Numbered from the stretch's first letter, positions 40,484 through 56,986 are shown. The stretch: 64,000 bases of DNA from Armatimonadota bacterium (GCA_049969495.1 JBMFOT010000002.1:4406-68405); one strand, 5' to 3'. The notes: a model not told the origin generated them from the letters alone. Made by a program: numbers and translations.

Positions 40484-41116
40484 GTGTTCCAGACAGGCGA
40501 CCCGGTAGAGATACACTTCAAGATGGGGGATGCTCCCGTCACACTGCGCGGGAAGCTGGTTCAGATGGCACGTCCTCTGCTGGGGGTTCAGCTGACGAAC
40601 TCTCCGGCATGTGACGGCTCGATAAGACCCGGTATGACCGTGCTCATCGCCATCAGTGGGGGCACAGGGGTGTACACCTCAGAGGTTGTTGTCCAGCGCT
40701 GCGACATGACGTTGGGACAGCTTATTGTATCGGTGAACGGCTCGTTCCGCTTCCAGCAAAGGCGCCAACATGAACGTTACCCGTGCGACATGCAGGTGCG
40801 CCTGCGTGTGGTTGGAGACACCGAATGGACAAACGGGGTGTGCCGCGACATCTCGGCGGGAGGCGCCCGCATCTACCTGTCCCAGCAGTTTGTTCTGCGC
40901 TCCAACACGCTGGAAGTGGTTTTTATCTCGCCTACCAGCCAGCAGGCGGTGCGCGCCATCGCGGAGATAGTCAGAACAAGCAAACTGCTTAACGACAGCG
41001 GATGGGAAATCGGCATACGCTTCACCGAGATGAACCGCATGGAGAAAATCCAGTTCGCGCGCCTACTACAACACTGGGCATCCCGTCAACAGCGCGATCC
41101 GGTGCGTCCTGATTAA
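40484..41116 (+). CDS. PilZ-domain protein (YcgR-like: PilZN + PilZ)
   Basis: QRRQHERYPCDMQVRL (RxxxR) and GVCRDISAGGARIYL (DxSxGG) are present. The start codon is GTG. Confidence 0.65.
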   Translation: MFQTGDPVEIHFKMGDAPVTLRGKLVQMARPLLGVQLTNSPACDGSIRPGMTVLIAISGGTGVYTSEVVVQRCDMTLGQLIVSVNGSFRFQQRRQHERYPCDMQVRLRVVGDTEWTNGVCRDISAGGARIYLSQQFVLRSNTLEVVFISPTSQQAVRAIAEIVRTSKLLNDSGWEIGIRFTEMNRMEKIQFARLLQHWASRQQRDPVRPD

Positions 41117-43924: not shown

Positions 43925-44680
43925 ATGGCACAGCCGACCCGTGCTGAAGTGATCGAGGCGGAGCTGCAGCGCATTATCCCCATCGTCATCGTGGGGATTG
44001 TGGTGCTCCTTGTCGGGCTGTTTCTGCTATATCTGTCCACCATTGCTGCGTGGATGCCGTTTATCATCGGGGTGATTGTGACCATCGCGGGGGTGGGTAT
44101 TGCAGGATACGGCGGGTGGCAGTATATGCAGCTGAATAACCTGCCCTCCTATCGGGCGATATGCCCCTACTGCGAGCAGCCGACGTTATTCCTTGCTCCA
44201 CCAACGGAGGACTACTCCTGTGAGCACTGCCACAGGATCGTGGCAATAGAGGGAGGACAGGTGGTGCCGCCGCTGGTGCTGGTGTGCCGGCACTGTGGCA
44301 CCCCACAGAAGGTGTCGCCTCGCGCGAAGATGTTTATCTGCGACAACTGTAACGGACAAAATGACCTCAAGCCCGCCAAACCCGACGTGGCAGCGGCTCC
44401 TGTGGGGGCAGCGGAAGAGAGCCTGGAGTACACCACTTATGACCTTGTGCTGGTAGATGCCGGACATAACACGGAAGAGGTTCTGGAGATACTTTGCGCC
44501 ATCTTGTCGGCGCCACGCGACCACTGTCGGGGTATTCTAAAAGACCTGCCGATGGTGATTCTGGTAGACCTGCCCCGGCGCAAGGCGGATTCCTATCGCC
44601 GAATGCTGCGTGAAGCAGGGGCAACTGCTGAGGTGCATCCCACCGGACAGTATCGCCCGCCCGCAAAGCAGGGTATGTAA
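43925..44680 (+). CDS. Membrane protein with two zinc-ribbon motifs and a C-terminal ClpS/L7-L12-CTD-like domain
   Basis: Two N-terminal TM helices. Cys motifs are ICPYCEQP...CEHCHR and CRHCGTP...CDNCNG. The C-terminus TYDLVLVDAGHNTEEVLEILCAILSAPRDHCRGILKDLPMVILVDLPRRKADSYRRMLREAGATAEVHP resembles ClpS-like adaptors. Confidence 0.45.
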   Translation: MAQPTRAEVIEAELQRIIPIVIVGIVVLLVGLFLLYLSTIAAWMPFIIGVIVTIAGVGIAGYGGWQYMQLNNLPSYRAICPYCEQPTLFLAPPTEDYSCEHCHRIVAIEGGQVVPPLVLVCRHCGTPQKVSPRAKMFICDNCNGQNDLKPAKPDVAAAPVGAAEESLEYTTYDLVLVDAGHNTEEVLEILCAILSAPRDHCRGILKDLPMVILVDLPRRKADSYRRMLREAGATAEVHPTGQYRPPAKQGM

Positions 44681-44687
44681 CAAAAAA

Positions 44688-44716
44688 GCCCCCCTTCTAC
44701 AGAAGGGGGTATGACA
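44688..44716 (-). terminator. Rho-independent terminator for the 44753..45502 gene (bidirectional position)
   Basis: CCCCCTTCT/AGAAGGGGG stem. On the minus strand it is followed by TTTTTTG. Confidence 0.7.
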
Positions 44717-44752
44717 TTTCAACGCACTATATGCAGGAGGAACTCGTAAGAC

Positions 44753-45502
44753 TCAATCGCGGGTGAAGTGAGCGTCGGTCATCTGCGTCTGGCTCATCGG
44801 CTTCACGTGCCCGTCGCAGAAGACGATGTTCGCGAACCCGCGATGTTTTACCACTTGGTTACCGGTGTCCACGTCCTTACGGTTATCGATGTGACGGAAA
44901 TCCACCGTGGGGTTACCCCACCACATGGAGGGCGGGTCAATGTAGGGTGTTTCCCACATGGTGCCGTCGCCACCGTACCAGGGCACATTGTAGAAACCAC
45001 TGTCGGCGAACATCACCTTTTCCGCAGGACGTGAGAGCGCGGATTCGGAGGCAGGGTTGCGCAGGTTGGGCCAAGTGCTCCAGTTGAAGGTGATGTAGAT
45101 GTCCGAGCCGATATAACCCCAGTTGTAACCGTAGCCGTTACCGTCGCCAAAGCGGGTGCGTCCACCCCAGCTGGGACAGCGTTGAATCTGCCCGTTTTTC
45201 ATGTAGGGGTAGAGCAAGCTCTGCGTTTTGTCCCACACGCCTGCCTGCGTTTCCTTGCCGAACCAGCACTGTCGCAGAGAACCACTGTAGGCGTACTGGG
45301 CAATGGGGTAGGTCTCGTCGTAGTCCTGGAGGTACATCAGCGTTGCCAGACCCAGCTGCTTCAGGTTGCTCTGGCAGCTCGCCTGACGGGCTTTCTCGCG
45401 TGCCTGCGCGAAAACAGGGAACAGAATCGCTGCCAGTATCGCGATAATCGCGATAACTACCAGCAGCTCAATCAGCGTGAAAGCGTTGCGTTGGCGGAAC
45501 AT
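44753..45502 (-). CDS. DUF1559 protein with prepilin-type N-terminal methylation domain
   Basis: The start is at the internal Met ([49 protein letters not shown]), which has an AAGGAGGG RBS. Confidence 0.8.
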
Positions 45503-45939
45503 ACTTCCCTCCTTACCAAAAAATTCACCGCTCACGACGCGCGGAGGGAAACGTCGGAAGCGGTGTGTGCTTTCGGCGCGTCAATAAAAAACCTGATGCC
45601 CTTCCGCACCAGGTTGGTTGAAACGCGCCCGATTCACCTTCGGGTCACGTCCCCCTCCCTCCGCGAAGGGGGCCCTGCGATGTGCAGGGCGTGACCAGCC
45701 GTCGCCGGGCATTCGGGCTTATCTCCCCGTGTGGGAGACACACCGCAGCGGGCCTGCGCCGGATTCTCACCGGACTTCCCCCGATATTTCAGCCCCGATG
45801 CGATCGGGGCGCAGACGGCTCACCCTTATGTGATTTGGTAATACTATATCACAGCCGCGCGGGGCTGTCAAGCGTTTTCGCAGCGACTTTGGAGATTTTT
45901 TGTACCCGGCGAGGAAAACTGCTTGCACCGAGGCGAAAC

Positions 45940-46995
45940 ATGAAAGGGAGTAAAGGGGTAGTAGGTAGTGTTGAGATGAGCTTTCCACTGACAGTAGAAG
46001 CGTTGGAGCGTGTCGAGAAGACCCTGCGCGTTCCGAACAGCCCGATGTATCGCGAGAGGCTGTCCGGGGCAAGCCTGCCGTACGCTACCCTGTGGCCGCT
46101 CAGCATGTATCACTCCGCCCTGATTACGGCGGCGGAGTATGACCCCAAACGCTACTTGCACGCGCTCAAGCGGCTACAGCAAACCCTGCTTGCCTACTGG
46201 GATGACAGGCATCAACCGCCGGGATTCGACGCCTACCCGAAGGGCAACGATAAGTACTACGACGATAACGCCTGGATGGCGTTGAACTACCTGCGATTGT
46301 ATATCTTGACGCGCGAGAGGGAATGGCTGTGCTGGGCGCAGGATGTACACCGCTTCGTATGGAGCGGCTGGGATGAGCAACTGGACGGTGGTATCTATTG
46401 GCATCAGAGCCGAAAAAGCAAAAACACCTGCTCTAACGCACCTGCGCTGGTATCTGCTTTATGGCTCTATTCGCTCACGCGCGCTGAGGAGTACCTGGAG
46501 CAAGCAAAGCGAATACATACGTGGCTAAGCGCGCATCTCCAGGACCCGGAAGACGGGTTGTTCTGGGACAGTGTTCAGATGGATGGGCGAGTAGACCGCA
46601 CCAAGTTCGCTTACAACAGCGCACTGATGATTCAGGCGAACCTGTGGTGGTACCGAATCACCCGGCGCGAAGAGTACCTTCGCGAGGCGATTCGTCTGGC
46701 GCGTGTGTCGGAGAAGACGTGGTTCGGCTGGCGTAGCAGAGCGTTAGAAGGTTACGCACCTTTCGTGGTCAAGCTATGTGAGGCGTATCGGCAGCTGGCA
46801 GCGGTCACCGGAGATAGCCGGTGGGCAGTGCTGGTGGAGCGCACGGTGAAGTTCGTGAAAACACTTCGCTCACCGGAAGGAGACTATCCTGATGACTGGT
46901 ACGCGGAAGGGAAGCGGGAGCCGGTTACCAGCTTGATGGCGCTTGCCTCAGCCGCCTGTTTATTCGGGCTGGCAGCTGAGCGGCATACCTCTTAA
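45940..46995 (+). CDS. GH76-like (alpha-1,6-mannanase family) glycoside hydrolase, cytoplasmic or start uncertain
   Basis: YYDDNAWMALNYLRLY (GH76 DD catalytic pair context) and GGIYWHQS (GGxxW motif) are present. There is no signal peptide. An alternative start is at 45976 (MSFPL). Confidence 0.5.
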   Translation: MKGSKGVVGSVEMSFPLTVEALERVEKTLRVPNSPMYRERLSGASLPYATLWPLSMYHSALITAAEYDPKRYLHALKRLQQTLLAYWDDRHQPPGFDAYPKGNDKYYDDNAWMALNYLRLYILTREREWLCWAQDVHRFVWSGWDEQLDGGIYWHQSRKSKNTCSNAPALVSALWLYSLTRAEEYLEQAKRIHTWLSAHLQDPEDGLFWDSVQMDGRVDRTKFAYNSALMIQANLWWYRITRREEYLREAIRLARVSEKTWFGWRSRALEGYAPFVVKLCEAYRQLAAVTGDSRWAVLVERTVKFVKTLRSPEGDYPDDWYAEGKREPVTSLMALASAACLFGLAAERHTS

Positions 46996-47044
46996 AAAGA
47001 GGGTACAATATAGTGTGCTATCACGTTCATGGAGGCTTCATACC

Positions 47045-47293
47045 GTGTGGAAGTTTCTCAACAGTTTCACCGGTCTGGCGGTGCTGCTGTTCATCATCGG
47101 CGCTGTGGGGCTGGTGTATGGAGCAGATGCCATCCGCGATCCGGGGCAACCGCATGACCCCCTGCTGCCATGGTTGTATTTTGGAGCTGCAGCGCTGATG
47201 ATTGTGAACGCCATTCTCTCTGTGCGCCACTATGAGCAGAAGATGAAGGAGCAGGAGCAATCATCCAAAAAGAAGGAGGAAGCCCGCAAATGA
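47045..47293 (+). CDS. Small 2-TM membrane protein
   Basis: GTG start with a GGAGG RBS 9 nt upstream. It has two hydrophobic helices and a Lys/Glu-rich tail. The ORF-track ORF 46943..47293 would overlap the previous gene, so I shortened it. Confidence 0.4.
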   Translation: MWKFLNSFTGLAVLLFIIGAVGLVYGADAIRDPGQPHDPLLPWLYFGAAALMIVNAILSVRHYEQKMKEQEQSSKKKEEARK

Positions 47294-47559
47294 GCGCGGT
47301 CGTGTGTGTAGACTGCGGTAAGCCGTTGGAGAAAATCCCTGTCTGGTTGGCTGGCGTCAAGGTCAAGTTCACGTGCGAAGAGTGCCGCACCAAGCACCGT
47401 CCCCCGATGGTGATTGTAGACGACCTGCCCCCTCTGCCCGAGGAGCCTGCCGAGGATATAGACATTATCGAGCGCGAGGAGGGGCTGGACACCACCTCGC
47501 TGGAGGAGCTGGCTCAGGAAGAGGAAAAAGGGCTGGAAGAAGAGGAAGAAGAGGTGTAA
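47290..47559 (+). CDS. Small zinc-ribbon protein with poly-acidic C-terminus
   Basis: CVDCGKP...CEECRTKH (C-x2-C ... C-x2-C), then EEEKGLEEEEEEV. It overlaps its neighbours by ATGA. Confidence 0.45.
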   Translation: MSAVVCVDCGKPLEKIPVWLAGVKVKFTCEECRTKHRPPMVIVDDLPPLPEEPAEDIDIIEREEGLDTTSLEELAQEEEKGLEEEEEEV

Positions 47560-47565
47560 CCGACG

Positions 47566-48654
47566 ATGTGGGGCAGGCTTGCCCTGCTGATTGGCGTGTT
47601 GTGTCTTTTTCTGCCCAGTGGTGCAGGAAGCGCAAGCGACTATCGCATCAGCGCGGGCGACACGCTGGAAGTTGCTGTTTGGGGGTATGAAGACCTCTCC
47701 CGCACGGTCATCGTACGCCCCGACGGCAACATCTCCTTGCCGGTGGTGGGCGAACTGCGCGCGCAGGGCATCACCCCGGACGAACTGGCGCGACAGGTTG
47801 CCGGTTCCCTTTCCCGCTGGGTGAAAAATCCCCGCGTCAGCGTCATCGTCAAATCTTTCGCGCAACATCAGATTTTCGTGCTCGGAGCGGTGGCTCGTCC
47901 GGGCGTCTATCCTCTGCAGCCCGGCTTAACCGTCGCCGAAGCAATTGCGCTGGCAGGGGGATTCACCGCCAATGCCGACCGCAACCACCTCACCGTTCTG
48001 CGCAGAGAGCAGGCGCAAGACGTAAAGTTCTCCGTGAGGTTTACCGATAATCTCTCACGAGAGGATTCAGCGGTACGCTTCGTGCTTCAACCGGGTGATA
48101 ACCTGATTGTCTCTGAAGCCGCTTTCACCGTCACCGGTGCGGTGGCACGTCCGGGAGTGTATTCGGTAGGCACGCTACGAAACCTGGAAGAAGCACTGGC
48201 GACCGCCGGAGGCACCTTGACATTCGGAGACCCGTCTCGCGCTGAGGTGCAAGTGGGTGAAAGGACGGAGGTGGTAGACCTACTGGATGCCGGCGTGCGC
48301 CAACGACCGCTCCAGCCAGGCATGACCATCCGCGTGCCGGAACGGGAAAATACCCTGTTCGTTATCGGTGAGGTCGCGAGGGCAGGAGCATACGGCTGGG
48401 CAAAGGGACGCTGCGAGACGCTAATGGATGCGCTGACTGCCGCAGGAGGTCCCACCCGCGAGGCACGGCTGGAGCGCGTGGTGGTGAACCGTGGCAACCA
48501 GTTCCTGCAGGTGAACGCGACCACCCCGCAGGGAGCGCGCTTTCCCCTGCAGCCGACCGACGTGGTGATTGTGCCCTCGCGCCCCAGACCCAATTACGAA
48601 TGGACGGCGGTACTTGGCACGCTGCTGGCGGTCTATTCGGTGTTCCGACGTTAG
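47566..48654 (+). CDS. Polysaccharide export protein (Wza/GumB-like; Poly_export + SLBB domains)
   Basis: A signal peptide. ISAGDTLEVAVWGYEDLSRTVIVRPDGNISLPVVGELRAQGITPDELARQV is the Poly_export motif. Two SLBB-like segments follow. Confidence 0.75.
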   Translation: MWGRLALLIGVLCLFLPSGAGSASDYRISAGDTLEVAVWGYEDLSRTVIVRPDGNISLPVVGELRAQGITPDELARQVAGSLSRWVKNPRVSVIVKSFAQHQIFVLGAVARPGVYPLQPGLTVAEAIALAGGFTANADRNHLTVLRREQAQDVKFSVRFTDNLSREDSAVRFVLQPGDNLIVSEAAFTVTGAVARPGVYSVGTLRNLEEALATAGGTLTFGDPSRAEVQVGERTEVVDLLDAGVRQRPLQPGMTIRVPERENTLFVIGEVARAGAYGWAKGRCETLMDALTAAGGPTREARLERVVVNRGNQFLQVNATTPQGARFPLQPTDVVIVPSRPRPNYEWTAVLGTLLAVYSVFRR

Positions 48655-48661
48655 CCCCATC

Positions 48662-49480
48662 ATGATAGACCTCCACACCCACATTCTGCCCGGCGTCGAT
48701 GACGGTCTCCAGGACATCAGCGAGGCGCTGCTCATGGCGGAAGATGCGGTCGCACAGGGCGTGAGCGTCATGGTAGCAACACCGCACCTCCGCTGGGGCG
48801 AGCGACAGGAGCTGGACGCCTTGCGGATTCGGCGCGAGGTGGCTGACCTGAACGCTCTGATGCAGGCGAAGGGTGTTCCGATAGAGATACTGCCCGGTTG
48901 CGAGATCCCGTTAACCGCCGACCTGCCGGAGCGATTACAGCGTGATGAGTGGATGTCGCTGGGCGACAGCGGGCACGCAGTGCTGGTGGAACCACCTTGG
49001 GAGCAATGGCCGCCTTTCGGCAAGGCAGTCATCCAGAGTCTGCTGGACGCGGGCTGGAGCGTGGTGCTAGCGCATCCCGAACGCCACCGCTTCTTCCAGA
49101 ATCACCTGGGCTTGCTGGAGGAGCTGGTGCAGATGGGCGTGCATTTGCAAGTGACCACCGGCTCTCTGATACCGGGCAAGGCTTCGCCAGCGGCGGCACG
49201 ATGCGCCTACGAGCTGACGGAGCGACGGCTGGTCAGCGTGGTGGCTTCGGATTGCCACGGTGTGACACACCGCCGGTGCGATCTGGGCGAGGCGGCGGAA
49301 CTGCTCCGACGCACATACGGACCGCACGTAGCGCGAATGCTGACCGACGGCGTGCCCCGCGCGTTGTTGCGAGGAGAGAGGGTGGAACCGGCGCAAATCT
49401 GGAAAAACGCGCCGACAGACGAAAGCCGATGGAAACGATTGTTGCGGGCTGTTTTGAGGAGGGAAACCGATGACGGATAA
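48662..49480 (+). CDS. CpsB/YwqE-type manganese-dependent protein-tyrosine phosphatase (PHP family)
   Basis: MIDLHTHILPGVDDGLQDISEALLMAEDAVAQGVSVMVATPH is the classic CpsB N-terminus. It starts 8 nt after the wza-like stop. Its stop overlaps the flgB start. Confidence 0.75.
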   Translation: MIDLHTHILPGVDDGLQDISEALLMAEDAVAQGVSVMVATPHLRWGERQELDALRIRREVADLNALMQAKGVPIEILPGCEIPLTADLPERLQRDEWMSLGDSGHAVLVEPPWEQWPPFGKAVIQSLLDAGWSVVLAHPERHRFFQNHLGLLEELVQMGVHLQVTTGSLIPGKASPAAARCAYELTERRLVSVVASDCHGVTHRRCDLGEAAELLRRTYGPHVARMLTDGVPRALLRGERVEPAQIWKNAPTDESRWKRLLRAVLRRETDDG

Positions 49481-49868
49481 GCTGTTTGGCGGAAATTACC
49501 CCTTGCTGAAGCAGGCACTTCATGCATGTGCTCTGCGGCAGGAAGCGATTGCGCACAACATCGCGAACGTGAACACCCCCGGCTACCGGCGAATCGACGT
49601 GTCCTTTGAAGAGTTTCTGCGCGCTGCCCAGCAAACACCTCTGCAGACTACCCACCCGCGTCACTACGCACTGTCGCCTCCCCGGCTGGCAAAACCTCAA
49701 GTAACCCCTGATGAGGATGCGCCTATGCGCCCCGACGGGAACACGGTGGATATCGACTACGAGATGGCGCAACTCGCCGAAAACCAGATACGCTTCCAGG
49801 CGCTCAGCCAGCTGATTACCGGTCGCTACCAGAGCCTGAAAACGGTCATCACGGGTGGAGGGAGGTAA
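49470..49868 (+). CDS. flgB: Flagellar basal-body rod protein FlgB
   Basis: ...AIAHNIANVNTPGYRRIDVSFEEF (rod N-terminal motif), 132 aa. Confidence 0.85.
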   Translation: MTDKLFGGNYPLLKQALHACALRQEAIAHNIANVNTPGYRRIDVSFEEFLRAAQQTPLQTTHPRHYALSPPRLAKPQVTPDEDAPMRPDGNTVDIDYEMAQLAENQIRFQALSQLITGRYQSLKTVITGGGR

Positions 49869-49874
49869 GCACAC

Positions 49875-50318
49875 GTGAGCATCTTTAACTCCTTACGCAT
49901 CAGCGCATCCGGCTTGACTGCCGAGAGGTTGCGTCTGGACGTTATCGCCGATAACCTGGCAAACGTCAACACCACGCGCACAGCGACAGGAGGTCCCTAC
50001 CGGCGCAAGGTGGCGATACTGGAAGAGCGTCCCACCGGTTTTGCGGACCTGCTGGGCATCCAGTCCGCGCCGGCGATGGGCAGGGGCGGCGTGCGTGTGG
50101 CGGCGATAGCAGAAGATACAAGCCCTCCTCAGCGTGTGTACAATCCGGGGCACCCCGATGCCGACGCCGACGGTTATGTGCTGATGCCCAACGTGAACGT
50201 GGTAACCGAAATGGTGGAGATGATTACCGCTACGCGGGCGTACGAGGCAAACGTCACCGCGATGAACGCGGCGAAGCAGATGGCTTTGCGCACGCTGGAC
50301 ATCGGCAGGAACGCATAA
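49875..50318 (+). CDS. flgC: Flagellar basal-body rod protein FlgC
   Basis: MSIFNSLRISASGLTAERLRLDVIADNLANVNTT. GTG start with a GGAGGT RBS. Confidence 0.85.
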   Translation: MSIFNSLRISASGLTAERLRLDVIADNLANVNTTRTATGGPYRRKVAILEERPTGFADLLGIQSAPAMGRGGVRVAAIAEDTSPPQRVYNPGHPDADADGYVLMPNVNVVTEMVEMITATRAYEANVTAMNAAKQMALRTLDIGRNA

Positions 50319-50328
50319 GGGGGAGTAG

Positions 50329-50634
50329 ATGATGGACATTCGCTTGAACTCTGTGCTGCCGGGGGCAACAGGAGCTCTTCTCCCCTCTCCCACAGAGTCG
50401 GGCGAGGGAACAGAATTCTCCTTCACCGACGCGCTCAAGGATGCGTTTGACAGGATAAACCAGATGCAGAACGACGCCGCCGAGCTGGCCCGGCAGTTCG
50501 CGGCAGGCGAGACCGACGACCTGGTACGCGTGGTCACCGCGGCGGAGGAAGCCTCTATCGCCCTGCAGCTGGCGATGCAGGTGCGCAACAAGGTGGTAGA
50601 GGCGTATCAGGAAATCATGCGGATGCAGGTATAG
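50329..50634 (+). CDS. fliE: Flagellar hook-basal body complex protein FliE
   Basis: 101 aa. The C-terminal ...AEEASIALQLAMQVRNKVVEAYQEIMRMQV is typical of FliE. Confidence 0.8.
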   Translation: MMDIRLNSVLPGATGALLPSPTESGEGTEFSFTDALKDAFDRINQMQNDAAELARQFAAGETDDLVRVVTAAEEASIALQLAMQVRNKVVEAYQEIMRMQV

Positions 50635-50637
50635 CCG

Positions 50638-52260
50638 ATGCTGGAACGAGTGCGCGAGTGGTGGCAGACCAGTGACCGCCAGACCCGGCTGATCGCCGTT
50701 GCTTCGGCAGTGGGGCTGGTCATCGTGATGATAGCCCTCTCCTTCTGGGCGACTCAGCCGGAGTGGGACGTGCTGTACACCGGCTTATCGCCGTCGGACT
50801 CCGGCGCCATCGTCGCGCGGCTGAAGCAGGCGAAGGTCCCTTATCGTCTCTCCGCCGGGGGCAGCACGATCGAAGTGCCCGCCCGAAACCGTGATGAGAT
50901 GTTACTCTCTCTGGCGGCGGAGGGATTGCCCAATCAGGGCACGCTGGGCTACAGCCGGCTGGAGAAGCTGGGCTTCGGTACCACTCAGACGGTGGAACAG
51001 GAGACCACCCGTATCGCGCATGAAGAGGCTCTCCAGAACACCATCTCGCGCCTGCAGCCGGTAGCGGGCGCGCGCGTGCATATCACCCCTGCCATCGATT
51101 CGCCTTTCGTCGGCGAGAAGAAGCCTGCCAAAGCGAGCGTGATGGTAGACCTCAAACCGGGGCAGCAGCTCACACGCGAGCAGATTGCCTCCATCGTCTT
51201 CCTCGTATCGCGCAGCGTGGTAGGGCTGTCGCCGGACAACGTCTCGGTGGTGGACGAATATGCCAACCTGCTCTGGGATGGCTCGCAGGCTTCGGATATG
51301 GCGCCCGGCGTGGCAAGCAACAAGCTGGAACTGGAACGCGCGTATGCGGAGACCATCCAGCGCCAGCTCCAGCAGCAGCTCGACGCGGTGCTGGGACCGG
51401 GCAAATCGAGGTTGACGGTCACCGCCGAACTGGACCTGGACCGCGAGGAGGTCAACCAGAAGCAGATCGAAACCGGACCTGACGGGCAGGGCACGCCTGT
51501 GAGCGAGACACGCACCGAAGAGACCGTGCGCGGCGCCGCACCGCGCGGGGGAAGCGGTACTGCAGGCGTGCCAACATACCCCACAACGCCCGCAGGAGCA
51601 CCCGGCGAATACAAACACTCCTCTACCACCACGAACTACGAGGTGGGACAGAGCACTATCCACCGTGTGAAGACGCCCGGCAGGGTGGTACGTATGTCGG
51701 TGGCGGCCATGATAGACGCTTCGGTGCCGCAGGAGCAGGTGGAGAAGGTGCGTACCTTCCTGGAGGGTGCGGTCGGCGCGGACCAGAGCGACCCCAATCG
51801 TCGGTTCCGCGTGATTGTGGAAAGCATCCCCTTCGACAACACGCTGGCGAAGGAGGCGGAAGCTGCCCGCAAACAGTTTGCCAGCCGTCAGCTGATAGAC
51901 ACCGCACTGCGCTATCTCCCTCTGGCGATGTTGTTGATTGTGCTGTTGCTTCTGGCGAAGGCGTTGCGACCGGCGCGTGTGGCGCAGACGCCCGAGGGCG
52001 TGGTTATGTCGTTGCCGGGGGGCAGCGTGCCTGAGGAGGCTGCGGGAACCGAGGGAGCGGACGGGGATCTGCCCGAGCAAGCAGCGGCGGAGATGCGGAA
52101 GACACACCGTACAGATGCCCTGTCTGAAGAAGAAGTGGAAATCACCCCCATTCGCGAGCGCGTGGACGTGAATCTGGAGAGCGTCATCCGGCTGGCAGAC
52201 CAGAAGCCGGAGAAGGTTGCCATGTTGATTAAAGGCTGGTTGGCGGAGGACGAGCGATAA
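50638..52260 (+). CDS. fliF: Flagellar M-ring protein FliF
   Basis: 540 aa. An N-terminal TM, a YscJ/FliF domain (VLYTGLSPSDSGAIVARLKQAKVPYRL) and a C-terminal TM are present. Confidence 0.9.
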   Translation: MLERVREWWQTSDRQTRLIAVASAVGLVIVMIALSFWATQPEWDVLYTGLSPSDSGAIVARLKQAKVPYRLSAGGSTIEVPARNRDEMLLSLAAEGLPNQGTLGYSRLEKLGFGTTQTVEQETTRIAHEEALQNTISRLQPVAGARVHITPAIDSPFVGEKKPAKASVMVDLKPGQQLTREQIASIVFLVSRSVVGLSPDNVSVVDEYANLLWDGSQASDMAPGVASNKLELERAYAETIQRQLQQQLDAVLGPGKSRLTVTAELDLDREEVNQKQIETGPDGQGTPVSETRTEETVRGAAPRGGSGTAGVPTYPTTPAGAPGEYKHSSTTTNYEVGQSTIHRVKTPGRVVRMSVAAMIDASVPQEQVEKVRTFLEGAVGADQSDPNRRFRVIVESIPFDNTLAKEAEAARKQFASRQLIDTALRYLPLAMLLIVLLLLAKALRPARVAQTPEGVVMSLPGGSVPEEAAGTEGADGDLPEQAAAEMRKTHRTDALSEEEVEITPIRERVDVNLESVIRLADQKPEKVAMLIKGWLAEDER

Positions 52261-53285
52261 TGACTACACGAACTGCGACGCCACAGCTCACACATCGCCA
52301 GAAAGCGGCGGTGATGATTGTGGCGATGGGGCCCGATGTGGCAGGCAAGGTACTGCGCCATCTGGATGAGGACGAGGTAGAACAAATCACCCTCGAAATC
52401 GCCCGCATGGGCAAAATCCCGCCAGAGGTGCGCGAAGCGATTATCGAGGAGTTTCACGACCTCTGTGTGGCACAGGAGTATATCGCGGAGGGCGGTTTGC
52501 AACACGCCCGGCAGGTGCTGGAGAACGCTTTCGGTCCCGAAAGAGCCAACGAGCTCATCACCCGCGTCATTCAGGCGATGCAGATTGTGCCGTTCGACTT
52601 CATCAAGAAAACGGACCCCAGCCAGCTGCTGAACTTCATTCAGGATGAGCACCCGCAAACCATTGCGCTGATACTGGCTTACCTTCCTCCCAATCAGGCA
52701 GCGCAGGTGTTGCAAGGGCTACCTCCCGAATTGCGGGCGGAGGTGGCACACCGCATTGCCATCATGGATCGCACCCCGCCCGACGTGATTCGGGAGGTAG
52801 AGAAGGTGCTGGAGCGCAAGCTCTCCTCGGTGATTTCGCAGGATTTCACCACCGCCGGCGGTGTGAAGGCGCTGGTGGAACTGCTCAACTGGGTAGACCG
52901 AACCAGCGAGCGCATGATACTGGACAGCCTTTCCGAGACCAACCCTGAGCTGGCGGAAGAGGTCAAGAAGATGATGTTCGTGTTCGAGGACATCGTGCAG
53001 CTGGACGACCGCTCCATCCAGGCGGTGCTCAAGGAGGTGGACATGAAGGAGCTTGCGCTCGCACTCAAGGGTTGCAGCGAGGAGGTGCGTCAGCGTATCT
53101 TCAAGAACATGTCCGAACGCGCCGCCAACATGCTCAAAGAGGATATGGAGTTCATGGGTCCGGTGCGCCTGCGCAACGTGGAAGAGGCTCAGCAGCGCAT
53201 CGTCGCCATCATCCGACGCATGGAGGAGGCTGGCGAAATCGTCATCGCGCGTGGTGGCGGCGGTGCGGAAGAGATGGTGGTGTAA
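52260..53285 (+). CDS. fliG: Flagellar motor switch protein FliG
   Basis: 341 aa. FliG N, middle and C domains are present (LTHRQKAAVMIVAMGPDVAGKVLRHLDEDEVEQITLEIARM ...). Confidence 0.9.
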   Translation: MTTRTATPQLTHRQKAAVMIVAMGPDVAGKVLRHLDEDEVEQITLEIARMGKIPPEVREAIIEEFHDLCVAQEYIAEGGLQHARQVLENAFGPERANELITRVIQAMQIVPFDFIKKTDPSQLLNFIQDEHPQTIALILAYLPPNQAAQVLQGLPPELRAEVAHRIAIMDRTPPDVIREVEKVLERKLSSVISQDFTTAGGVKALVELLNWVDRTSERMILDSLSETNPELAEEVKKMMFVFEDIVQLDDRSIQAVLKEVDMKELALALKGCSEEVRQRIFKNMSERAANMLKEDMEFMGPVRLRNVEEAQQRIVAIIRRMEEAGEIVIARGGGGAEEMVV

Positions 53286-53288
53286 CCG

Positions 53289-53993
53289 ATGCTGGGGCAG
53301 GTACTCAAGGGCAACCAGCTGGCTCGCTTCACCCGATGGGTGGGGTCTCCTCTGCGGGTTATCCAAACACCCTCCGAACCGCAGGAGCAAGAACATGAAT
53401 CGACAGGTCCCACCCCCGAAGAGTTGCTGGCGGAAGCGAAGCGCGTTCTGGCGGAAGCGCACCGGCAGGCGGACCAGATGCGCCAGGATGCGGTGCGCAA
53501 GGGCTATGAAGAGGGCTTGCAGCTGGGGCGTGAGGAAGGGTTACGCCACTATCAACAAGCGATAGAAGCTCTGGGTAGCGAGGTGCAAAAGCTGGTGGAC
53601 GCCATCCTCGCCGAGCGACAGCGACTTTGGGAGGAGATGGAGCCGCAGGTAGTAGACCTTGTGCTGGAAATCGCCCGCAAGGTGCTGCGCGAGGAGATTC
53701 AGGCGCGTCGTGAAGCTACCCTGTCCATCATTAAGCACGCCCTGCGGCGCGTGGTGGACACCGAACACGTACGTATCCGGGTGCATCCCGACGACCTGCG
53801 GATTGCCAGGGAGCATCGGGAGGACTTCCTCGCCGTGTGCGACGGGGTAAAGCAGATAGAGATTGTAGACGACCAGCGTGTAGGCGGTGGTGGTTGTATT
53901 ATTGAGACGCCCAGCGGTACTATCGACGCTTCTTTGCGCACACAAATACAGTCGGTAGAGAAATCGCTACGGCAGGAGGATCAGGCGGCGTAA
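53289..53993 (+). CDS. fliH: Flagellar assembly protein FliH
   Basis: A charged coiled-coil N-terminus and a C-terminal FliH domain. Its position between fliG and fliI supports the call. Confidence 0.7.
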   Translation: MLGQVLKGNQLARFTRWVGSPLRVIQTPSEPQEQEHESTGPTPEELLAEAKRVLAEAHRQADQMRQDAVRKGYEEGLQLGREEGLRHYQQAIEALGSEVQKLVDAILAERQRLWEEMEPQVVDLVLEIARKVLREEIQARREATLSIIKHALRRVVDTEHVRIRVHPDDLRIAREHREDFLAVCDGVKQIEIVDDQRVGGGGCIIETPSGTIDASLRTQIQSVEKSLRQEDQAA

Positions 53994-54012
53994 CGGATAG
54001 GGGTGAGCGAAG

Positions 54013-55359
54013 ATGCGGAACGCGCCTGAAAACCTGCTACCATTATCTCCACCCGACCTGTCGGCAGCGCGGGAGCGATTGCGCCTGCTGGACCCGATAA
54101 AGGTGCACGGTCGGGTGCAACAGGTTATCGGGCTGGTCATAGAAAGCGTCGGACCCGCTGCGCGTGTAGGTGAGGTCTGCGAGATTCACTTCCAGCGCAC
54201 ACGCCCTCCCATCTTTGCGGAGGTGGTGGGCTTTCGGCAGAACCGCGTGCTGTTGATGCCTTTGGGGGAGATGGAGGGTATCACGCCCGGCAGTCAGGTG
54301 GTAGCAACGGGCATGGTACACAAAGTACCTGTCGGCGAATGCCTGCTGGGGCGCGTGCTGGACGGGTTGGGCAGACCGATGGACAGCGGGCCACCGATTA
54401 CTCCAGACACCCTGTATCCGGTGAACCGCCAGCCCCCGAATGCCCTGGCTCGCAAACGCATTACCGAAGCGGTCAGTCTGGGGGTACGGGCGATTGACGG
54501 GTTGCTTACCGTCGGCAAGGGGCAACGTATCGGCATCTTCGCCGGCTCCGGTGTGGGCAAAAGTACCCTGCTGGGCATGATTGCCCGCTACACCAGCGCG
54601 GATGTGAACGTCATCGCCCTCACCGGCGAGCGTGGGCGTGAGGTACGCGAGTTCATAGAAGAGGACCTGGGTGAGGAAGGGCTAAAGCGGTCGGTGGTGG
54701 TGGTCGCGACGTCCGATCAGCCTGCGCTGCTGCGCATTAAAGCGGCGATGGTCGCCACAACCATTGCCGAGTACTTCCGGGATCAGGGGCTGGATGTGTT
54801 GCTGATGATGGATTCGGTCACACGCCTTGCGCTGGCGCAGCGCGAGGTGGGATTGGCTATCGGCGAACCGCCTGCCACACGCGGCTACACGCCCTCGGTG
54901 TTTGCCATTCTGCCTCGTCTGCTGGAACGCGCGGGCACATCGGATAAGGGCACAATTACCGGGCTGTACACCGTGCTGGTGGAAGCCGATGATATGAACG
55001 AGCCGGTCGCCGACACCGTGCGGGGCATCCTGGACGGGCACATTGTGTTGTCGCGTGCGTTGGCGCACCGCAACCACTATCCTGCCATTGATGTGCTGGC
55101 AAGCGTCTCGCGCGTGATGCCCCAAATCACCGATGAGGAACATCGGCAGGCGGCGGCGCAGGTGCGTAAGGTGCTGGCGGACTACACCGAGGCGGAAGAC
55201 CTGATTAACATCGGCGCGTACCAGCAGGGCAGTAACCCCGATATCGACTACGCCCTGCGCTACATCGGCAAGGTGCGTGAGTTCTTGCAACAGGGCAAGA
55301 TGGAGGGATGCCCGCTGGAGCAGACGATACAGCGGTTGAAAACATTGTTCGTTGATTGA
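54013..55359 (+). CDS. fliI: Flagellum-specific ATP synthase FliI
   Basis: Walker [24 protein letters not shown] and Walker [10 protein letters not shown], 448 aa. Confidence 0.9.
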
Positions 55360-55391
55360 TAAATTGATTGGGTTGATTGCGTGCGTGTTGA

Positions 55392-55477
55392 TGAGCGTTT
55401 ATGGGCTTTTGTCATCCTAACAGCGTATCGGTGAGCGTTTGTGCGCTTGTGTCATTCTGAACGGAGCGAAGAATCTC
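55392..55477. repeat. Tandem imperfect duplication of family A repeat (..TGAGCGTTTrTGsGCTTkTGTCATyCTrAmmGsG..), second copy GTCATTCTGAACGGAGCGAAGAATCTC
   Basis: Two units of about 42 nt sit head-to-tail in the fliI-fliJ intergenic region. The second unit is the best match to the family consensus. Confidence 0.5.
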
Positions 55478-55489
55478 ATTACCAGTGCT

Positions 55490-55966
55490 ATGCGACGATT
55501 TGAGTTCTCTCTACAAAAAGTTCTGGACTACCGTCAACGGCGGGAAGAGCAGGCGGTGCGTGCCTTTACACAAGCGCAAGCGCAGCTACTGCACGAGCAG
55601 GCGGTGTTGCACAAACTGGTTGTGGAACGCGAAGAGTGTCTGCGCCGTTCGCATCGTCAGCAGCGTCTGACGGTGGAACTGCTGGATGTAGAACAAACCT
55701 ATCTGTCCGCTCTGGAAGAGCGCATCGAGGCACAGCGCGAACGGGTGGCAGAGGCAGAGAAGGTGCTGGAAGAGAAACGACAGGCTTTGACGCAGGCACA
55801 GCGCGAACGCAAAGCACTGGAACGCTTGCGAGAGAAGCACTACGAACAGTGGCGTCAGGAAATATTGCGCATCGAGCAGAAAGCACTGGATGAGCTTGCG
55901 ACGGCGCGATCGGTGCGATCACCGGGCGTTTTGACCTTACACACAGGGGGTGAGGAGCGTGAGTAG
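55490..55966 (+). CDS. fliJ: Flagellar export chaperone FliJ
   Basis: MRRFEFSLQKVLDYRQRREEQAVRAF... is a coiled coil of about 158 aa. The internal ATG is chosen over the TTG at 55439. Confidence 0.7.
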   Translation: MRRFEFSLQKVLDYRQRREEQAVRAFTQAQAQLLHEQAVLHKLVVEREECLRRSHRQQRLTVELLDVEQTYLSALEERIEAQRERVAEAEKVLEEKRQALTQAQRERKALERLREKHYEQWRQEILRIEQKALDELATARSVRSPGVLTLHTGGEERE

Positions 55967-56492
55967 CCTGTACGCACAGGCGATTGCCCGAATGCAAGCC
56001 CTGTGGCAAAGGGTGGAGCAGTTATCTATTGCTACGCCTTCCGTCAGCCCGTCCTCCGGGTTCGCGCAGGCACTGCGGGTGGCGCAGCGGAGCGCTACCG
56101 CTATGTTACCGGCTGCAATCGGCGAGTTGATAGCGCGCGTGGCGCAGGAAGAGGGGGTGGATGAGGCACTGGTGCGAGCGGTGGTACGGGCAGAATCCGG
56201 CGGCAACCCCAACGCGGTTTCGCCGAAGGGAGCAATGGGTTTGATGCAGCTGATGCCGGGTACCGCCGAAGCGATGGGCGTCAGCAATCCCTTTGACCCC
56301 GAGCAGAACCTGCGTGGTGGTGTGCGCTTGCTGCGGGGGCTACTGAATGAGTTCGGCGATGTGCGCCTCGCGCTGGCGGCGTACAACGCGGGAGGACCGG
56401 CAGTGCGCCAGTATGGGGGCATCCCCCCGTATGCGGAAACCCAGAAATTCGTGCAGAGGGTGATGGAGCTGTGGCAGGGTGAGCGCCGATGA
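55950..56492 (+). CDS. Lytic transglycosylase (SLT domain), flagellum-associated
   Basis: ESGGNPNAVSPKGAMGLMQLMPGTA (SLT catalytic motif). GTG start. Confidence 0.7.
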   Translation: MRSVSSLYAQAIARMQALWQRVEQLSIATPSVSPSSGFAQALRVAQRSATAMLPAAIGELIARVAQEEGVDEALVRAVVRAESGGNPNAVSPKGAMGLMQLMPGTAEAMGVSNPFDPEQNLRGGVRLLRGLLNEFGDVRLALAAYNAGGPAVRQYGGIPPYAETQKFVQRVMELWQGERR

Positions 56493-56986
56493 AGCGGTTG
56501 TTGCTGGTGCTGATACTTCTGCTGGCACTACTGGGGGTTGCGTACGGACTGGCGAAGATGGGCGTTATTCCGGTGGCGAAGCTGACGGCGAAAAACCCCG
56601 CGCTGGCGAAGTTCGCCCGCACGGTGGGACTACTCCCCCGCAAGCAGGCGGTCAAAGCCGATACGAAGGAAGAGCACTCTTCCAGCCCCGCTCCTGAAGC
56701 CTCTCGCCCCATGAAAGTTGCTGAACCGCCCCGTCCCGCCGTGCAGCCGCCGGTAACCGCTCCCGCTTCTGCTGGCGATAACGCCGGTCGGCAGATTGGC
56801 TGGGTGGCGAAGGTGTATGAGAACATGGAGCCTGAGGAGGCGGTGCGTATCATGGAGAAGATGGACGACCGCGAAGTGGTGCCTCTGTTGCGTCGCATGA
56901 AACAGCGGCAGGTGGCGCAAATCCTCGCGCTGATGCCTCCCGACCGCGCCGCTCGCCTCTCACGCACCCTGATGATTCAGAGGTAA
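56489..56986 (+). CDS. FlbB/YlxF-like flagellar protein (MgtE_N-like domain)
   Basis: An N-terminal TM or signal. The C-terminal MEPEEAVRIMEKMDDREVVPLLRRMKQRQVAQILALMPPDRAARL is a MgtE_N-type helical repeat. Confidence 0.55.
   Translation: MKRLLLVLILLLALLGVAYGLAKMGVIPVAKLTAKNPALAKFARTVGLLPRKQAVKADTKEEHSSSPAPEASRPMKVAEPPRPAVQPPVTAPASAGDNAGRQIGWVAKVYENMEPEEAVRIMEKMDDREVVPLLRRMKQRQVAQILALMPPDRAARLSRTLMIQR

What the first reader, a model, noticed from the sequence alone, without database searches (positions are those of the whole stretch)
47045..49480. Capsule/EPS export genes (Wza-like, CpsB-like Tyr phosphatase) translationally coupled into the flagellar rod/MS-ring operon
From 47045 to 56986 every gene overlaps or abuts the next, with ATGA/TAATG-type junctions. 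The cpsB-like stop overlaps the flgB start codon. Co-transcription of a polysaccharide secretin-like exporter and its phosphatase with flgB-flgC-fliE-fliF-fliG-fliH-fliI-fliJ is not the canonical arrangement. Its implication is coordinated, not inverse, control of surface polysaccharide and flagellar basal body. Alternatively the Wza-like protein may be co-opted as a flagellar outer-membrane ring or sheath component in a lineage lacking FlgH/FlgI. Two tiny proteins lead the operon: a 2-TM protein and a Zn-ribbon protein with a poly-Glu tail.
Basis: partly seen in the sequence, partly recalled or inferred. Interest (0 to 1): 0.55.

Follow-up and report, generated by a model that had tools for sequence, protein, structure and literature searches.

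The report
Polysaccharide-export genes fused to flagellar operon
In one uncultured hot-spring lineage (Armatimonadota class HRBIN16), a four-gene block for polysaccharide export and its regulation sits directly in front of the first flagellar operon and overlaps it; this is an unusual, lineage-specific arrangement of ordinary genes, not a new kind of flagellar part.

Summary
47045-49480 encodes a 2-TM protein, a Zn-ribbon protein with an acidic tail, a full-length Wza-like exporter (OPX) and a CpsB/YwqE-type PHP tyrosine phosphatase. The phosphatase gene overlaps flgB by 11 nt. flgB-flgC-fliE-fliF-fliG-fliH-fliI-fliJ-SLT-MgtE_N follow almost without gaps, except for 130 nt between fliI and fliJ.

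The window is from Armatimonadota class HRBIN16. The block, the overlap and an invariant GGGTACAAT (-10-like) motif upstream of the first small gene are kept in all 15 distinct clade loci. Neither an OPX nor a CpsB gene lies within 10 kb of flgB/flgC in 73 other flagellar loci, including seven from other Armatimonadota.

The suggestion that the exporter replaces missing L/P rings is not supported. A published table scores flgH and flgI present in both HRBIN16 genomes it covers, along with 3-4 wza and 3 exoP-type tyrosine-kinase genes.

The two small genes are a conserved pair outside the clade. In one other lineage the pair is followed by the same type of phosphatase, with no exporter or flagellar genes nearby.

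Best reading: a polysaccharide export and regulation module was fused to, and is probably co-transcribed with, the early flagellar operon. Whether this gives coordinated or inverse control cannot be told from sequence. It is a new variant of known kinds, of moderate interest.

The parts
47001..47009 (+). GGGTACAAT, a conserved -10-like promoter element 35 nt upstream of the first gene's GTG start
   Evidence: Invariant in 9 aligned loci while the flanking sequence and the upstream gene differ. Present 22-38 nt upstream of the TM2 start in all 15 non-duplicate clade loci. Promoter function is inferred, not shown.
47045..47293 (+). TM2: an 82-aa protein with two hydrophobic segments and a Lys/Glu-rich tail; function unknown
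   Evidence: ORF. No Pfam or NCBIfam family. 74-98% identical across the clade. Homologues at 29-42% identity precede the Zn-ribbon gene in L090, L092 and L093.
47290..47559 (+). ZnR: an 89-aa four-Cys Zn-ribbon protein with an acidic tail; function unknown
   Evidence: Sequence. 49 distant clusters in an exhaustive HMMER search. Conserved core V.C.ECGKPI..IP.WL..V.VKF.CEECRQKHP followed by an acidic tail. Weak, sub-threshold match to DUF7836.
47566..48654 (+). Wza-like outer-membrane polysaccharide export (OPX) protein, 362 aa: signal peptide, Poly_export domain, three SLBB domains and a C-terminal hydrophobic helix
   Evidence: Pfam. PDB sequence hits to WzaB 9n9a (1.4e-25) and Wza 2j58 (2.9e-16). 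AF2 model has pLDDT 89 and a helix at 344-361. Foldseek top hits are full-length E. coli Wza, E about 1e-19. NCBIfam EPS-export models match below their cut-offs.
48662..49480 (+). CpsB/YwqE-type PHP-family protein-tyrosine phosphatase, 272 aa, with a conserved basic C-terminal tail
   Evidence: Pfam CpsB_CapC 1.3e-44. PDB YwqE 3qy6 2.2e-36 and CpsB 2wjd 1.2e-20. The motifs HxH, DD, ATPH, GxE, AHPER and SDxH are all present and near-invariant in 121 homologues.
49470..49868 (+). flgB (proximal rod); its start lies 11 nt inside the phosphatase gene
   Evidence: Pfam Flg_bb_rod. The overlap geometry and the AGGAGG site upstream are kept in all clade loci.
49875..50318 (+). flgC
   Evidence: 86-99% identical to clade orthologues whose products carry Flg_bb_rod and Flg_bbr_C.
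50329..50634 (+). fliE
   Evidence: The orthologue in L001 carries Pfam FliE.
50638..52260 (+). fliF (MS ring)
   Evidence: The orthologue carries YscJ_FliF and YscJ_FliF_C.
52260..53285 (+). fliG
   Evidence: The orthologue carries FliG_N, FliG_M and FliG_C.
53289..53993 (+). fliH
   Evidence: The orthologue carries Pfam FliH.
54013..55359 (+). fliI (export ATPase)
   Evidence: The orthologue carries ATP-synt_ab and T3SS_ATPase_C.
55360..55489 (+). 130-nt non-coding insertion with a roughly 28-nt direct repeat; the only real gap in the operon
   Evidence: Sequence. Absent from L010, L001 and L013. Insertions of other sizes occur at this or the neighbouring junction in L011, L008 and L016.
55490..55966 (+). 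fliJ
   Evidence: NCBIfam flagell_FliJ, 83 bits against a cut-off of 50.
55950..56492 (+). SLT-domain lytic transglycosylase within the flagellar operon
   Evidence: Pfam SLT 9.7e-29. Best NCBIfam hit is the flagellar assembly lytic transglycosylase BB0259, below its cut-off. Also follows fliJ in other Armatimonadota and in Negativicutes loci.
56489..56986 (+). MgtE_N-domain protein (YlxF/FlbB-like); last gene of the block
   Evidence: Pfam MgtE_N 5e-8. NCBIfam collar_FlbB matches weakly, below its cut-off.

Best explanation
In the common ancestor of Armatimonadota class HRBIN16, a module for polysaccharide export and its regulation was fused to the 5' end of the early flagellar operon. The module is TM2, ZnR, a Wza-like OPX exporter and a CpsB/YwqE-type PHP tyrosine phosphatase.

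The fifteen genes (the four module genes plus eleven from flgB to the MgtE_N gene) are most likely transcribed as one unit from a sigma-70-like promoter with a -10 element GGGTACAAT at 47001. The phosphatase and FlgB appear translationally coupled through an 11-nt overlap.

The OPX protein probably does what OPX proteins normally do. It would form the periplasmic and outer-membrane conduit of a Wzx/Wzy- or ABC-dependent polysaccharide pathway whose inner-membrane parts are encoded elsewhere. The phosphatase would dephosphorylate ExoP/Wzc-type tyrosine kinases that are also encoded elsewhere.

The consequence would be that the amounts of one exporter and of the kinase-resetting phosphatase follow expression of the flagellar basal body. 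This hard-wires a link between motility and surface polysaccharide.

Shown: gene identities, geometry, conservation within the clade and absence outside it.
Inferred: co-transcription, the biochemical activities and the sign of the regulatory effect.
For: Identity of the two proteins:
- OPX domains, PDB hits and a confident model that matches Wza along its full length.
- PHP phosphatase with all metal-binding motifs intact.

Operon architecture:
- Gaps of 0-19 nt or overlaps at every junction from TM2 to fliI.
- The 11-nt phosphatase/flgB overlap and its Shine-Dalgarno site are kept in all clade loci.
- The only conserved non-coding element is GGGTACAAT upstream of TM2. Its upstream neighbour varies: GH76 is present in some loci and absent in others.
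- No sigma-70 promoter or + strand terminator matched inside the block upstream of flgB.
- Extra codon-level conservation in the phosphatase is confined to its last 20 codons, which include the ribosome-binding site and the overlap.

Selection:
- OPX is 74-94% identical across the clade, like FlgB and FliH. TM2 is 74-98% identical. Neither is decaying.

Lineage specificity:
- No OPX or CpsB within 10 kb of flgC in 73 other loci, including seven from other Armatimonadota.
- The nearest outside homologues are 35-44% identical. The OPX ones examined sit in ordinary polysaccharide contexts, with Wzz/kinase, ABC transporter, MurJ-like flippase or glycosyltransferases; the one CpsB homologue examined lies among housekeeping genes.

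Origin of the module:
- TM2-ZnR-phosphatase-GT4 occurs without OPX or flagellar genes in L090. That phosphatase is 38% identical and has the same C-terminal tail.

Partners exist:
- HRBIN16 genomes are annotated with 3 exoP/vpsO tyrosine-kinase genes and 3-4 wza genes (PMC9671151 Table S7).

Other:
- The gene order OPX then phosphatase mirrors wza-wzb(-wzc) of E. coli (from established knowledge).
Against: - No transcript data. An internal promoter of a type not scanned for (sigma-28, sigma-54 or a lineage-specific type) inside the phosphatase gene cannot be excluded.
- No inner-membrane partner (PCP/kinase, flippase, polymerase) lies within 10 kb in any clade locus. The pathway this OPX serves is therefore unidentified.
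- The C-terminal helix is only 18 residues, ends in Arg-Arg and did not match Pfam Wza_C. Outer-membrane insertion is not established.
- Conservation of synteny within a single class is compatible with simple inheritance.
Confidence: 0.6

Rival explanations
1. Neutral juxtaposition. The four-gene module landed upstream of flgB once in the HRBIN16 ancestor and has simply been inherited. flgB-fliJ is driven mainly by its own promoter embedded in the phosphatase gene, and there is no functional link between polysaccharide export and motility.
For: - The arrangement is confined to one class.
- In other Armatimonadota, flgB has its own upstream region, sometimes preceded by a sigma-factor gene.
- The TM2-ZnR pair occurs in many unrelated contexts.
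- The promoter scan covers only sigma-70-type sites.
Against: - There is no intergenic space. The 11-nt overlap and ribosome-binding site are fixed in 15 loci, even though the phosphatase diverges to 60% identity.
- No rearrangement ever separates the module from flgB, while the 5' neighbour does change.
- Extra codon-level conservation is confined to the last 20 codons of the phosphatase gene, which include the ribosome-binding site and the overlap.
- The conserved C-terminal tail of the phosphatase is also present in L090, where no flgB follows. It is therefore a protein feature, not a hidden promoter.
Confidence: 0.22
2. Flagellum-coupled adhesin export. The OPX exports a localized, holdfast-like adhesive polysaccharide. 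Putting it and the kinase phosphatase in the basal-body operon makes the exporter and the flagellum appear together, giving a swim-then-stick lifestyle in hot-spring mats.
For: - The OPX gene is an orphan, away from any biosynthetic cluster.
- Its conservation equals that of flagellar structural proteins.
- Within the same 64 kb are a GGDEF cyclase, a YcgR-like PilZ protein, a second PilZ protein and FapA.
- HRBIN16 organisms are abundant mat and biofilm heterotrophs (PMC11788075).
Against: - This is purely inferential. Nothing in the sequence indicates localization or polymer type.
- In Caulobacter the link between flagellum and holdfast is post-translational, not built into an operon (established knowledge).
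Confidence: 0.12
3. Structural co-option. The Wza-like protein is a flagellar outer-membrane or periplasmic ring or bushing, either replacing or adding to the L/P rings.
For: - Position in the basal-body operon.
- A ring-forming protein family.
- Armatimonadota have an outer membrane: LPS genes are reported in PMC5007114, and a TolC-like gene lies in the window.
Against: - flgH and flgI are annotated in both HRBIN16 genomes examined in PMC9671151.
- The protein has the complete OPX architecture and matches Wza end to end.
- A Wza octamer is about 105 Å wide outside and has a narrow lumen. It cannot enclose a distal rod about 130 Å wide (established knowledge of the Wza and LP-ring structures).
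- The co-located phosphatase has no role in this model.
- No other flagellar locus carries an OPX gene.
Confidence: 0.04

Closest known systems
E. coli group 1 capsule / colanic acid wza-wzb-wzc cluster
   Same: An OPX gene is followed immediately by the gene for the phosphatase that acts on the pathway's tyrosine kinase. The OPX has a Poly_export domain, SLBB domains and a C-terminal helix, and its model matches Wza 2J58 along its full length.
   Different: - The phosphatase is PHP-type (CpsB/YwqE), not the low-molecular-weight Wzb type.
- No wzc follows; flgB follows instead, with an 11-nt overlap.
- The OPX has no lipobox and a shorter C-terminal helix, and it does not match Pfam Wza_C.
CpsB (S. 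pneumoniae) / YwqE-PtpZ (B. subtilis) / PhpA (M. xanthus) PHP tyrosine phosphatases
   Same: Same domain family and intact metal-binding motifs. The expected substrates, ExoP-type tyrosine kinases, are annotated in the class.
   Different: - Not encoded next to its kinase.
- Carries a conserved basic C-terminal extension of about 25 residues.
- Preceded by the TM2-ZnR pair and, in HRBIN16, by an OPX gene.
- Translationally coupled to FlgB.
B. subtilis-type fla/che operon (flgB-flgC-fliE-fliF-fliG-fliH-fliI-fliJ-ylxF...)
   Same: Same order of the first eight flagellar genes, and an MgtE_N (YlxF-like) gene after fliJ.
   Different: - Four non-flagellar genes lead the operon.
- An SLT transglycosylase is inserted after fliJ.
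- The operon stops after the MgtE_N gene instead of continuing into fliK-flgD-flgE.
Caulobacter holdfast export (HfsD OPX) and flagellum-dependent surface sensing
   Same: A functional link between an OPX-dependent adhesive polysaccharide and the flagellum (established knowledge; see also PMC7885107 listed).
   Different: In Caulobacter the link is regulatory and post-translational and the genes are in separate loci. Here the link is physical membership of one operon, and its function is untested.
c-di-GMP / FleQ-type inverse control of flagella and exopolysaccharide
   Same: It addresses the same decision between motility and matrix production. c-di-GMP genes (GGDEF, YcgR-like, PilZ) lie 6-11 kb upstream in the window.
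   Different: That control works by opposite transcription of separate operons. Here, exporter and phosphatase genes share the flagellar operon.

Membership tests
OPX (Wza-like outer-membrane polysaccharide export) proteins | N-terminal Poly_export (PES) domain | tested here: met
   Pfam PF02563, E 4.5e-24, 84.9 bits against a cut-off of 28.
OPX (Wza-like outer-membrane polysaccharide export) proteins | One or more SLBB domains after the PES domain | tested here: met
   Three SLBB stretches, E 1e-28. The model shows three beta-grasp repeats.
OPX Class 1 (Wza type, per PMC9603273) | C-terminal outer-membrane-spanning Wza_C helix | tested here: inconclusive
   AF2 predicts a terminal helix at 344-361, and Foldseek aligns the whole chain to Wza 2J58. 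However, no Pfam Wza_C hit was returned at E<=0.01. The helix is 18 residues against about 35 in Wza, and it ends in RR.
OPX systems | Encoded with a PCP/tyrosine kinase and a Wzx/Wzy or ABC-transporter pathway | tested here: not met
   No such gene lies within 10 kb in any clade locus. exoP-type genes exist elsewhere in HRBIN16 genomes according to PMC9671151 Table S7.
OPX systems | Forms an oligomeric channel that exports polysaccharide | not testable with these tools
   Needs a multimer model or an experiment.
CpsB/YwqE PHP-family tyrosine phosphatases | CpsB_CapC (PHP) domain over the full length | tested here: met
   Pfam PF19567, E 1.3e-44, residues 1-236 of 272. YwqE 3qy6, E 2.2e-36.
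CpsB/YwqE PHP-family tyrosine phosphatases | Conserved metal-binding His/Asp/Glu motifs | tested here: met
   H5, H7, D13-D14, H42, E81, E110, H138, D197 and H199 are present and invariant or near-invariant in 121 homologues. Their assignment as metal ligands rests on knowledge of the YwqE and CpsB structures.
CpsB/YwqE PHP-family tyrosine phosphatases | Encoded next to its cognate tyrosine kinase (CpsC/CpsD type) | tested here: not met
   The neighbours are the OPX gene and flgB.
Flagellar L/P-ring or accessory-ring proteins (FlgH, FlgI, FlgP, FlgT) | Homology to a known ring protein | tested here: not met
   Only OPX families match in Pfam, NCBIfam and PDB.
Flagellar L/P-ring or accessory-ring proteins (FlgH, FlgI, FlgP, FlgT) | Lineage lacks FlgH/FlgI, the premise of the substitution idea | tested here: not met
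   PMC9671151 Table S7 gives flgH=1 and flgI=1 in both HRBIN16 MAGs. This is literature KEGG annotation and was not re-verified on sequence here.
Early flagellar (flgB-fliJ) operon | Contiguous flgB, flgC, fliE, fliF, fliG, fliH, fliI, fliJ on one strand | tested here: met
   Pfam families on the orthologous genes and 65-99% identity to the window's genes.

The most novel reading that the evidence does not exclude
The basal-body operon of HRBIN16 may double as a motility-to-matrix switch. By making a tyrosine-kinase phosphatase and an orphan exporter as 'class II flagellar' products, the cell would reset its ExoP-type kinases and open one dedicated export route only while it builds flagella, for example for a flagellum-associated adhesin or a coat. 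The conserved TM2-ZnR pair would act as a membrane-tethered regulator of the phosphatase. This would be a hard-wired, operon-level link between flagellar assembly and polysaccharide export that has not been described.
Probability: 0.15. Interest if true: 0.6.

Novelty: new variant of a known kind. Interest (0 to 1): 0.38.

Why it matters
Bacteria usually keep flagellar genes and exopolysaccharide genes in separate, oppositely regulated units. Here an exporter and a kinase phosphatase are physically built into the first flagellar operon of a whole class of abundant hot-spring heterotrophs.

If the genes are co-transcribed, this is a simple natural example of hard-wiring the choice between motility and matrix. 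It can be tested directly with existing Yellowstone metatranscriptomes in which this class is among the most active taxa.

The work also defines a small uncharacterized gene pair, a 2-TM protein plus a Zn-ribbon protein with an acidic tail. The pair is associated with PHP tyrosine phosphatases in at least two lineages, which points to an unknown regulator of tyrosine-kinase signalling.

It does not reveal a new flagellar component.

Tried and rejected
1. Exact-sequence look-up of the window's OPX protein found nothing. Context came from 87-94% identical relatives instead.
2. 'OPX replaces the L/P rings' was rejected on the published flgH/flgI annotation for the class and on the full Wza-like architecture.
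3. A hidden promoter in the 3' end of the phosphatase gene:
   - The sigma-70 consensus scan found none.
   - A TGG-N11-GC stretch that resembles sigma-54 by eye has the wrong spacing, and its 3' half is not conserved (read from the alignment).
   - Codon-level conservation rises only in the last 20 codons, which include the ribosome-binding site and the overlap.
   - The conserved tail is also present in L090, where no flgB follows.
   - An internal promoter is not excluded, but nothing supports one.
4. GH76 as the first gene of the operon was rejected. It is missing upstream in L011, L013/L007, L016 and L098, while the -10-like motif stays.
5. The nearest outside OPX (P0029, from the same sample as L007) was considered as a second OPX of the same organism. 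It was rejected because its cluster is labelled Candidatus Fervidibacter.
6. A literature search for OPX or Wza in flagellar operons found nothing relevant.
7. The supplements of the diel metatranscriptome paper held no gene-level flagellar or export entries as text.
8. A metagenome scan with the 33-sequence ZnR alignment failed for lack of a conserved stretch. A 9-sequence alignment worked.
9. Two ZnR homologue look-ups gave nothing usable: a 1.1-kb contig and a sequence not on record.
10. The Rfam scan of 44000-58000 found no RNA element in the operon leader.
Full report
**What is in the sequence**

On the + strand, 47045-56986 holds fifteen closely packed genes. The first four are:
- an 82-aa protein with two hydrophobic segments (47045-47293, GTG start);
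- an 89-aa four-Cys Zn-ribbon protein with a Glu-rich tail (47290-47559);
- a 362-aa protein with a Poly_export domain and three SLBB domains (47566-48654);
- a 272-aa CpsB_CapC protein (48662-49480).

FlgB starts at 49470, which is 11 nt inside the phosphatase gene, behind a GAGGAGG site. Then follow flgC, fliE, fliF, fliG, fliH, fliI, fliJ, an SLT lytic transglycosylase and an MgtE_N-domain (YlxF/FlbB-like) gene.

All junctions are overlaps or gaps of at most 19 nt, with one exception. The 130-nt fliI-fliJ spacer (55360-55489) contains a direct repeat of about 28 nt and is absent from close relatives.

**Identity of the two proteins in the title**

The exporter:
- It matches solved OPX proteins by sequence: M. 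xanthus WzaB 9n9a (1.4e-25) and E. coli Wza 2j58 (2.9e-16).
- An AlphaFold2 model built on 66 homologues is confident (pLDDT 89). It shows a signal-peptide helix, four beta-rich domains and a terminal helix at 344-361.
- Its best structural matches are full-length E. coli Wza chains, with E about 1e-19 and 357-370 aligned columns.
- It has no lipobox and no Pfam Wza_C hit, so its assignment to the 'Class 1' OPX type of PMC9603273 is likely but not proven.

The phosphatase:
- It aligns end to end with B. subtilis YwqE (2.2e-36) and pneumococcal CpsB.
- It keeps every conserved His/Asp/Glu motif of the family.
- Both proteins are under purifying selection. Across the clade the OPX is 74-94% identical, like FlgB and FliH, and the phosphatase is 60-92% identical.

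**Source organism and conservation**

FlgC is 99% identical to that of 'Bacterium HR16' (HRbin16). HRbin16 is, by its name, taken here to be the founding genome of Armatimonadota class HRBIN16, which the hot-spring MAG papers treat as a class of that phylum.

- The order TM2-ZnR-OPX-phosphatase-flgB...MgtE_N is found in every clade locus long enough to show it. That is 15 non-duplicate loci from independent genome and metagenome assemblies.
- The 11-nt overlap and its ribosome-binding site are kept in all of them.
- Upstream of TM2 the sequence diverges completely and the neighbouring gene differs; GH76 is present in some loci and absent in others. Even so, a GGGTACAAT motif 22-38 nt before the GTG start is invariant.
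- This is the only conserved non-coding element in the block and looks like a -10 element. I infer that it marks the operon promoter.
- A consensus scan found no sigma-70-type promoter and no + strand terminator at the phosphatase/flgB junction.
- Extra codon-level conservation in the phosphatase gene is limited to its last 20 codons, which include the ribosome-binding site and the overlap.

**How unusual is it?**

- Among the 80 genome loci most similar in FlgC, only the seven HRBIN16 loci carry an OPX or a CpsB gene within 10 kb. This holds by tblastn and by profile HMMs built from 121 homologues of each protein.
- Seven loci from other Armatimonadota lack them: Armatimonadaceae, Chthonomonadales, Capsulimonas and others. 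Two of these have a sigma-factor gene directly before flgB.
- Outside the clade, the nearest OPX is 35% identical and the nearest phosphatase 44% identical.
- The outside OPX examples examined sit in ordinary contexts. One is a Candidatus Fervidibacter OPX next to NusG-like, MurJ-like and GT2 genes. Another OPX lies next to a Wzz/kinase gene and an ABC transporter. The CpsB homologue examined lies among housekeeping genes.
- I found no paper describing an OPX gene in a flagellar operon.

**The L/P-ring idea**

- Armatimonadetes carry LPS core genes (PMC5007114), and the window has a TolC-like gene. An outer membrane is therefore expected.
- Table S7 of Kato et al. 2022 (PMC9671151) scores flgH=1 and flgI=1 in both HRBIN16 MAGs (KatS3mg022 and mg023). 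It also scores wza (K01991) at 3 and 4 copies and exoP/vpsO tyrosine kinase (K16554) at 3 copies each.
- The lineage therefore does not lack L/P rings, has several OPX paralogues, and has kinases on which the phosphatase could act.
- Caveat: this is published KEGG annotation. I could not re-check it on sequence or confirm that those two MAGs carry the fused operon.
- From established structural knowledge, a Wza octamer is also too narrow to surround the distal rod.

**The two small leader genes**

- A k-mer-based search found TM2 only in the clade.
- An exhaustive HMMER search with ZnR found 49 distant clusters of 65-126-aa proteins. They share the core V.C.ECGKPI..IP.WL..V.VKF.CEECRQKHP followed by an acidic tail.
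- In every informative locus outside the clade, ZnR is preceded by a TM2 homologue at 29-42% identity. The two genes are thus a conserved pair.
- In L090/L091 the pair is followed directly by a CpsB-type phosphatase and then a GT4 glycosyltransferase. That phosphatase is 38% identical and has the same basic C-terminal tail. No OPX or flagellar genes are nearby.
- Elsewhere the pair has unrelated neighbours.
- In L106 the pair lies about 1.8 kb from the 3' end of a convergent flagellar operon. I treat this as a single unexplained coincidence.
- The simplest history is this: a TM2-ZnR-phosphatase module existed first; in the HRBIN16 lineage an OPX gene was inserted into it, and the module became joined to flgB.

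**Mechanism proposed**

- *Shown:* the gene identities, intact catalytic motifs, tight coupling, a conserved promoter-like motif, and conservation within the clade with absence elsewhere.
- *Inferred:* one transcript from about 47015 to 56986, and translational coupling of the phosphatase and FlgB. The OPX would act as the outer conduit of a polysaccharide pathway whose inner-membrane parts are encoded elsewhere; split clusters of this kind are known in Myxococcus (PMC9603273). The phosphatase would act on the ExoP-type kinases.
- *Unresolved:* the sign of the effect. In E. coli, cycling of Wzc phosphorylation is needed for capsule assembly. M. xanthus PhpA, as I recall it, dampens exopolysaccharide production. 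Co-expression with flagellar genes could therefore implement either coordinated or inverse control.
- A GGDEF cyclase, a YcgR-like protein, a PilZ protein and FapA in the same window fit a motility/matrix neighbourhood but prove nothing.

**Verdict**

The finding is real, and the arrangement is lineage-specific and apparently undescribed. Every part belongs to a known family, and the most exciting interpretation (a substitute flagellar ring) is not supported. It is a new variant of known kinds, of moderate interest. A decisive test is available in existing metatranscriptomes.

Noticed in passing
window 45590-45871 (- strand), upstream of 44753-45535 (-): A cobalamin riboswitch (RF00174, 42.8 bits against a gathering score of 31.5, E 4e-8) lies at 45687-45831 on the minus strand. 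It is preceded by a near-consensus promoter (TTGACA-17-TATAGT, 45871-45843) and followed by a terminator-like hairpin (45615-45590). It sits in front of a prepilin-type N-methyl/DUF1559 gene. A B12 riboswitch controlling a pseudopilin-like DUF1559 protein is unexpected. It also means that the long GTG ORF starting at 45682 overstates the GH76 gene.
   Followed up: partly
window 55360-55489; L011 about 15465-15813; L008 about 15338-15576; L016 about 14081-14463: Non-coding insertions of different sizes (130-384 nt) sit at the fliI-fliJ or fliH-fliI junction in some clade genomes and not in others. The one in the window carries a direct repeat of about 28 nt (GAGCGTTT.TG.GCTT.TGTCAT.CT.AAC) and has no second copy in the window. 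It may be a small mobile repeat that tolerates, or targets, intra-operon spacers.
   Followed up: partly
L090 7765-10480; L092, L093, L103-L108: TM2 plus the Zn-ribbon/acidic-tail protein form a conserved, unannotated gene pair in lineages outside HRBIN16; the ZnR family has about 49 clusters at 50% identity. In L090 the pair is followed by a CpsB-type phosphatase with the same basic C-terminal tail and a GT4 glycosyltransferase. This may be an unrecognized regulator of PHP tyrosine phosphatases.
   Followed up: partly
L106 7691-16127: The TM2-ZnR pair lies about 1.8 kb from the 3' end of a convergently oriented flagellar operon (FliF, FliG, FliH, FliI, SLT and MgtE_N genes on the minus strand) in a different lineage, where FliI is 71% identical. 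This is a second, differently arranged proximity of the pair to flagellar genes. It remains unexplained.
   Followed up: no
window 36146-41116 and 23300-24748 (-): A GAF-GGDEF diguanylate cyclase (36146-37795), a YcgR-like PilZNR+PilZ protein (39519-40415), a second PilZ protein (40484-41116) and a FapA flagellar assembly protein (23300-24748, minus strand) lie 6-24 kb upstream of the operon. Together they suggest a motility and c-di-GMP neighbourhood.
   Followed up: no
window 56986 onward; L001, L007, L008: The flagellar operon stops after the MgtE_N gene. It is followed by a DUF4058 gene and, in relatives, by the transcription-repair factor gene. The hook and export-gate genes that continue the Bacillus-type fla/che operon must be elsewhere.
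   Followed up: no
window 55950-56492; L032, L060, L062, L081, L068, L073: An SLT lytic transglycosylase follows fliJ in HRBIN16, in other Armatimonadota and in Negativicutes loci. Its best NCBIfam match is the Borrelia flagellar assembly transglycosylase BB0259, below the cut-off. It may take over the FlgJ role, since flgJ is scored 0 in the HRBIN16 MAGs of PMC9671151 Table S7.
   Followed up: no
L008 8628-8899: In GCA_017880035.1 the Zn-ribbon gene is called as two short ORFs (49 and 33 aa). This is either a frameshift or an assembly error, in an otherwise intact block.
   Followed up: no
window 16416-17363 (-), 18971-19681 (+), 44753-45535 (-), 62543-63136 (+): There are four prepilin-type genes with nearly identical N-termini ([32 protein letters not shown]). 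The one scanned against Pfam, 44753-45535, matches N_methyl and DUF1559. Such genes are typical of Armatimonadota and Planctomycetota genomes.
   Followed up: no
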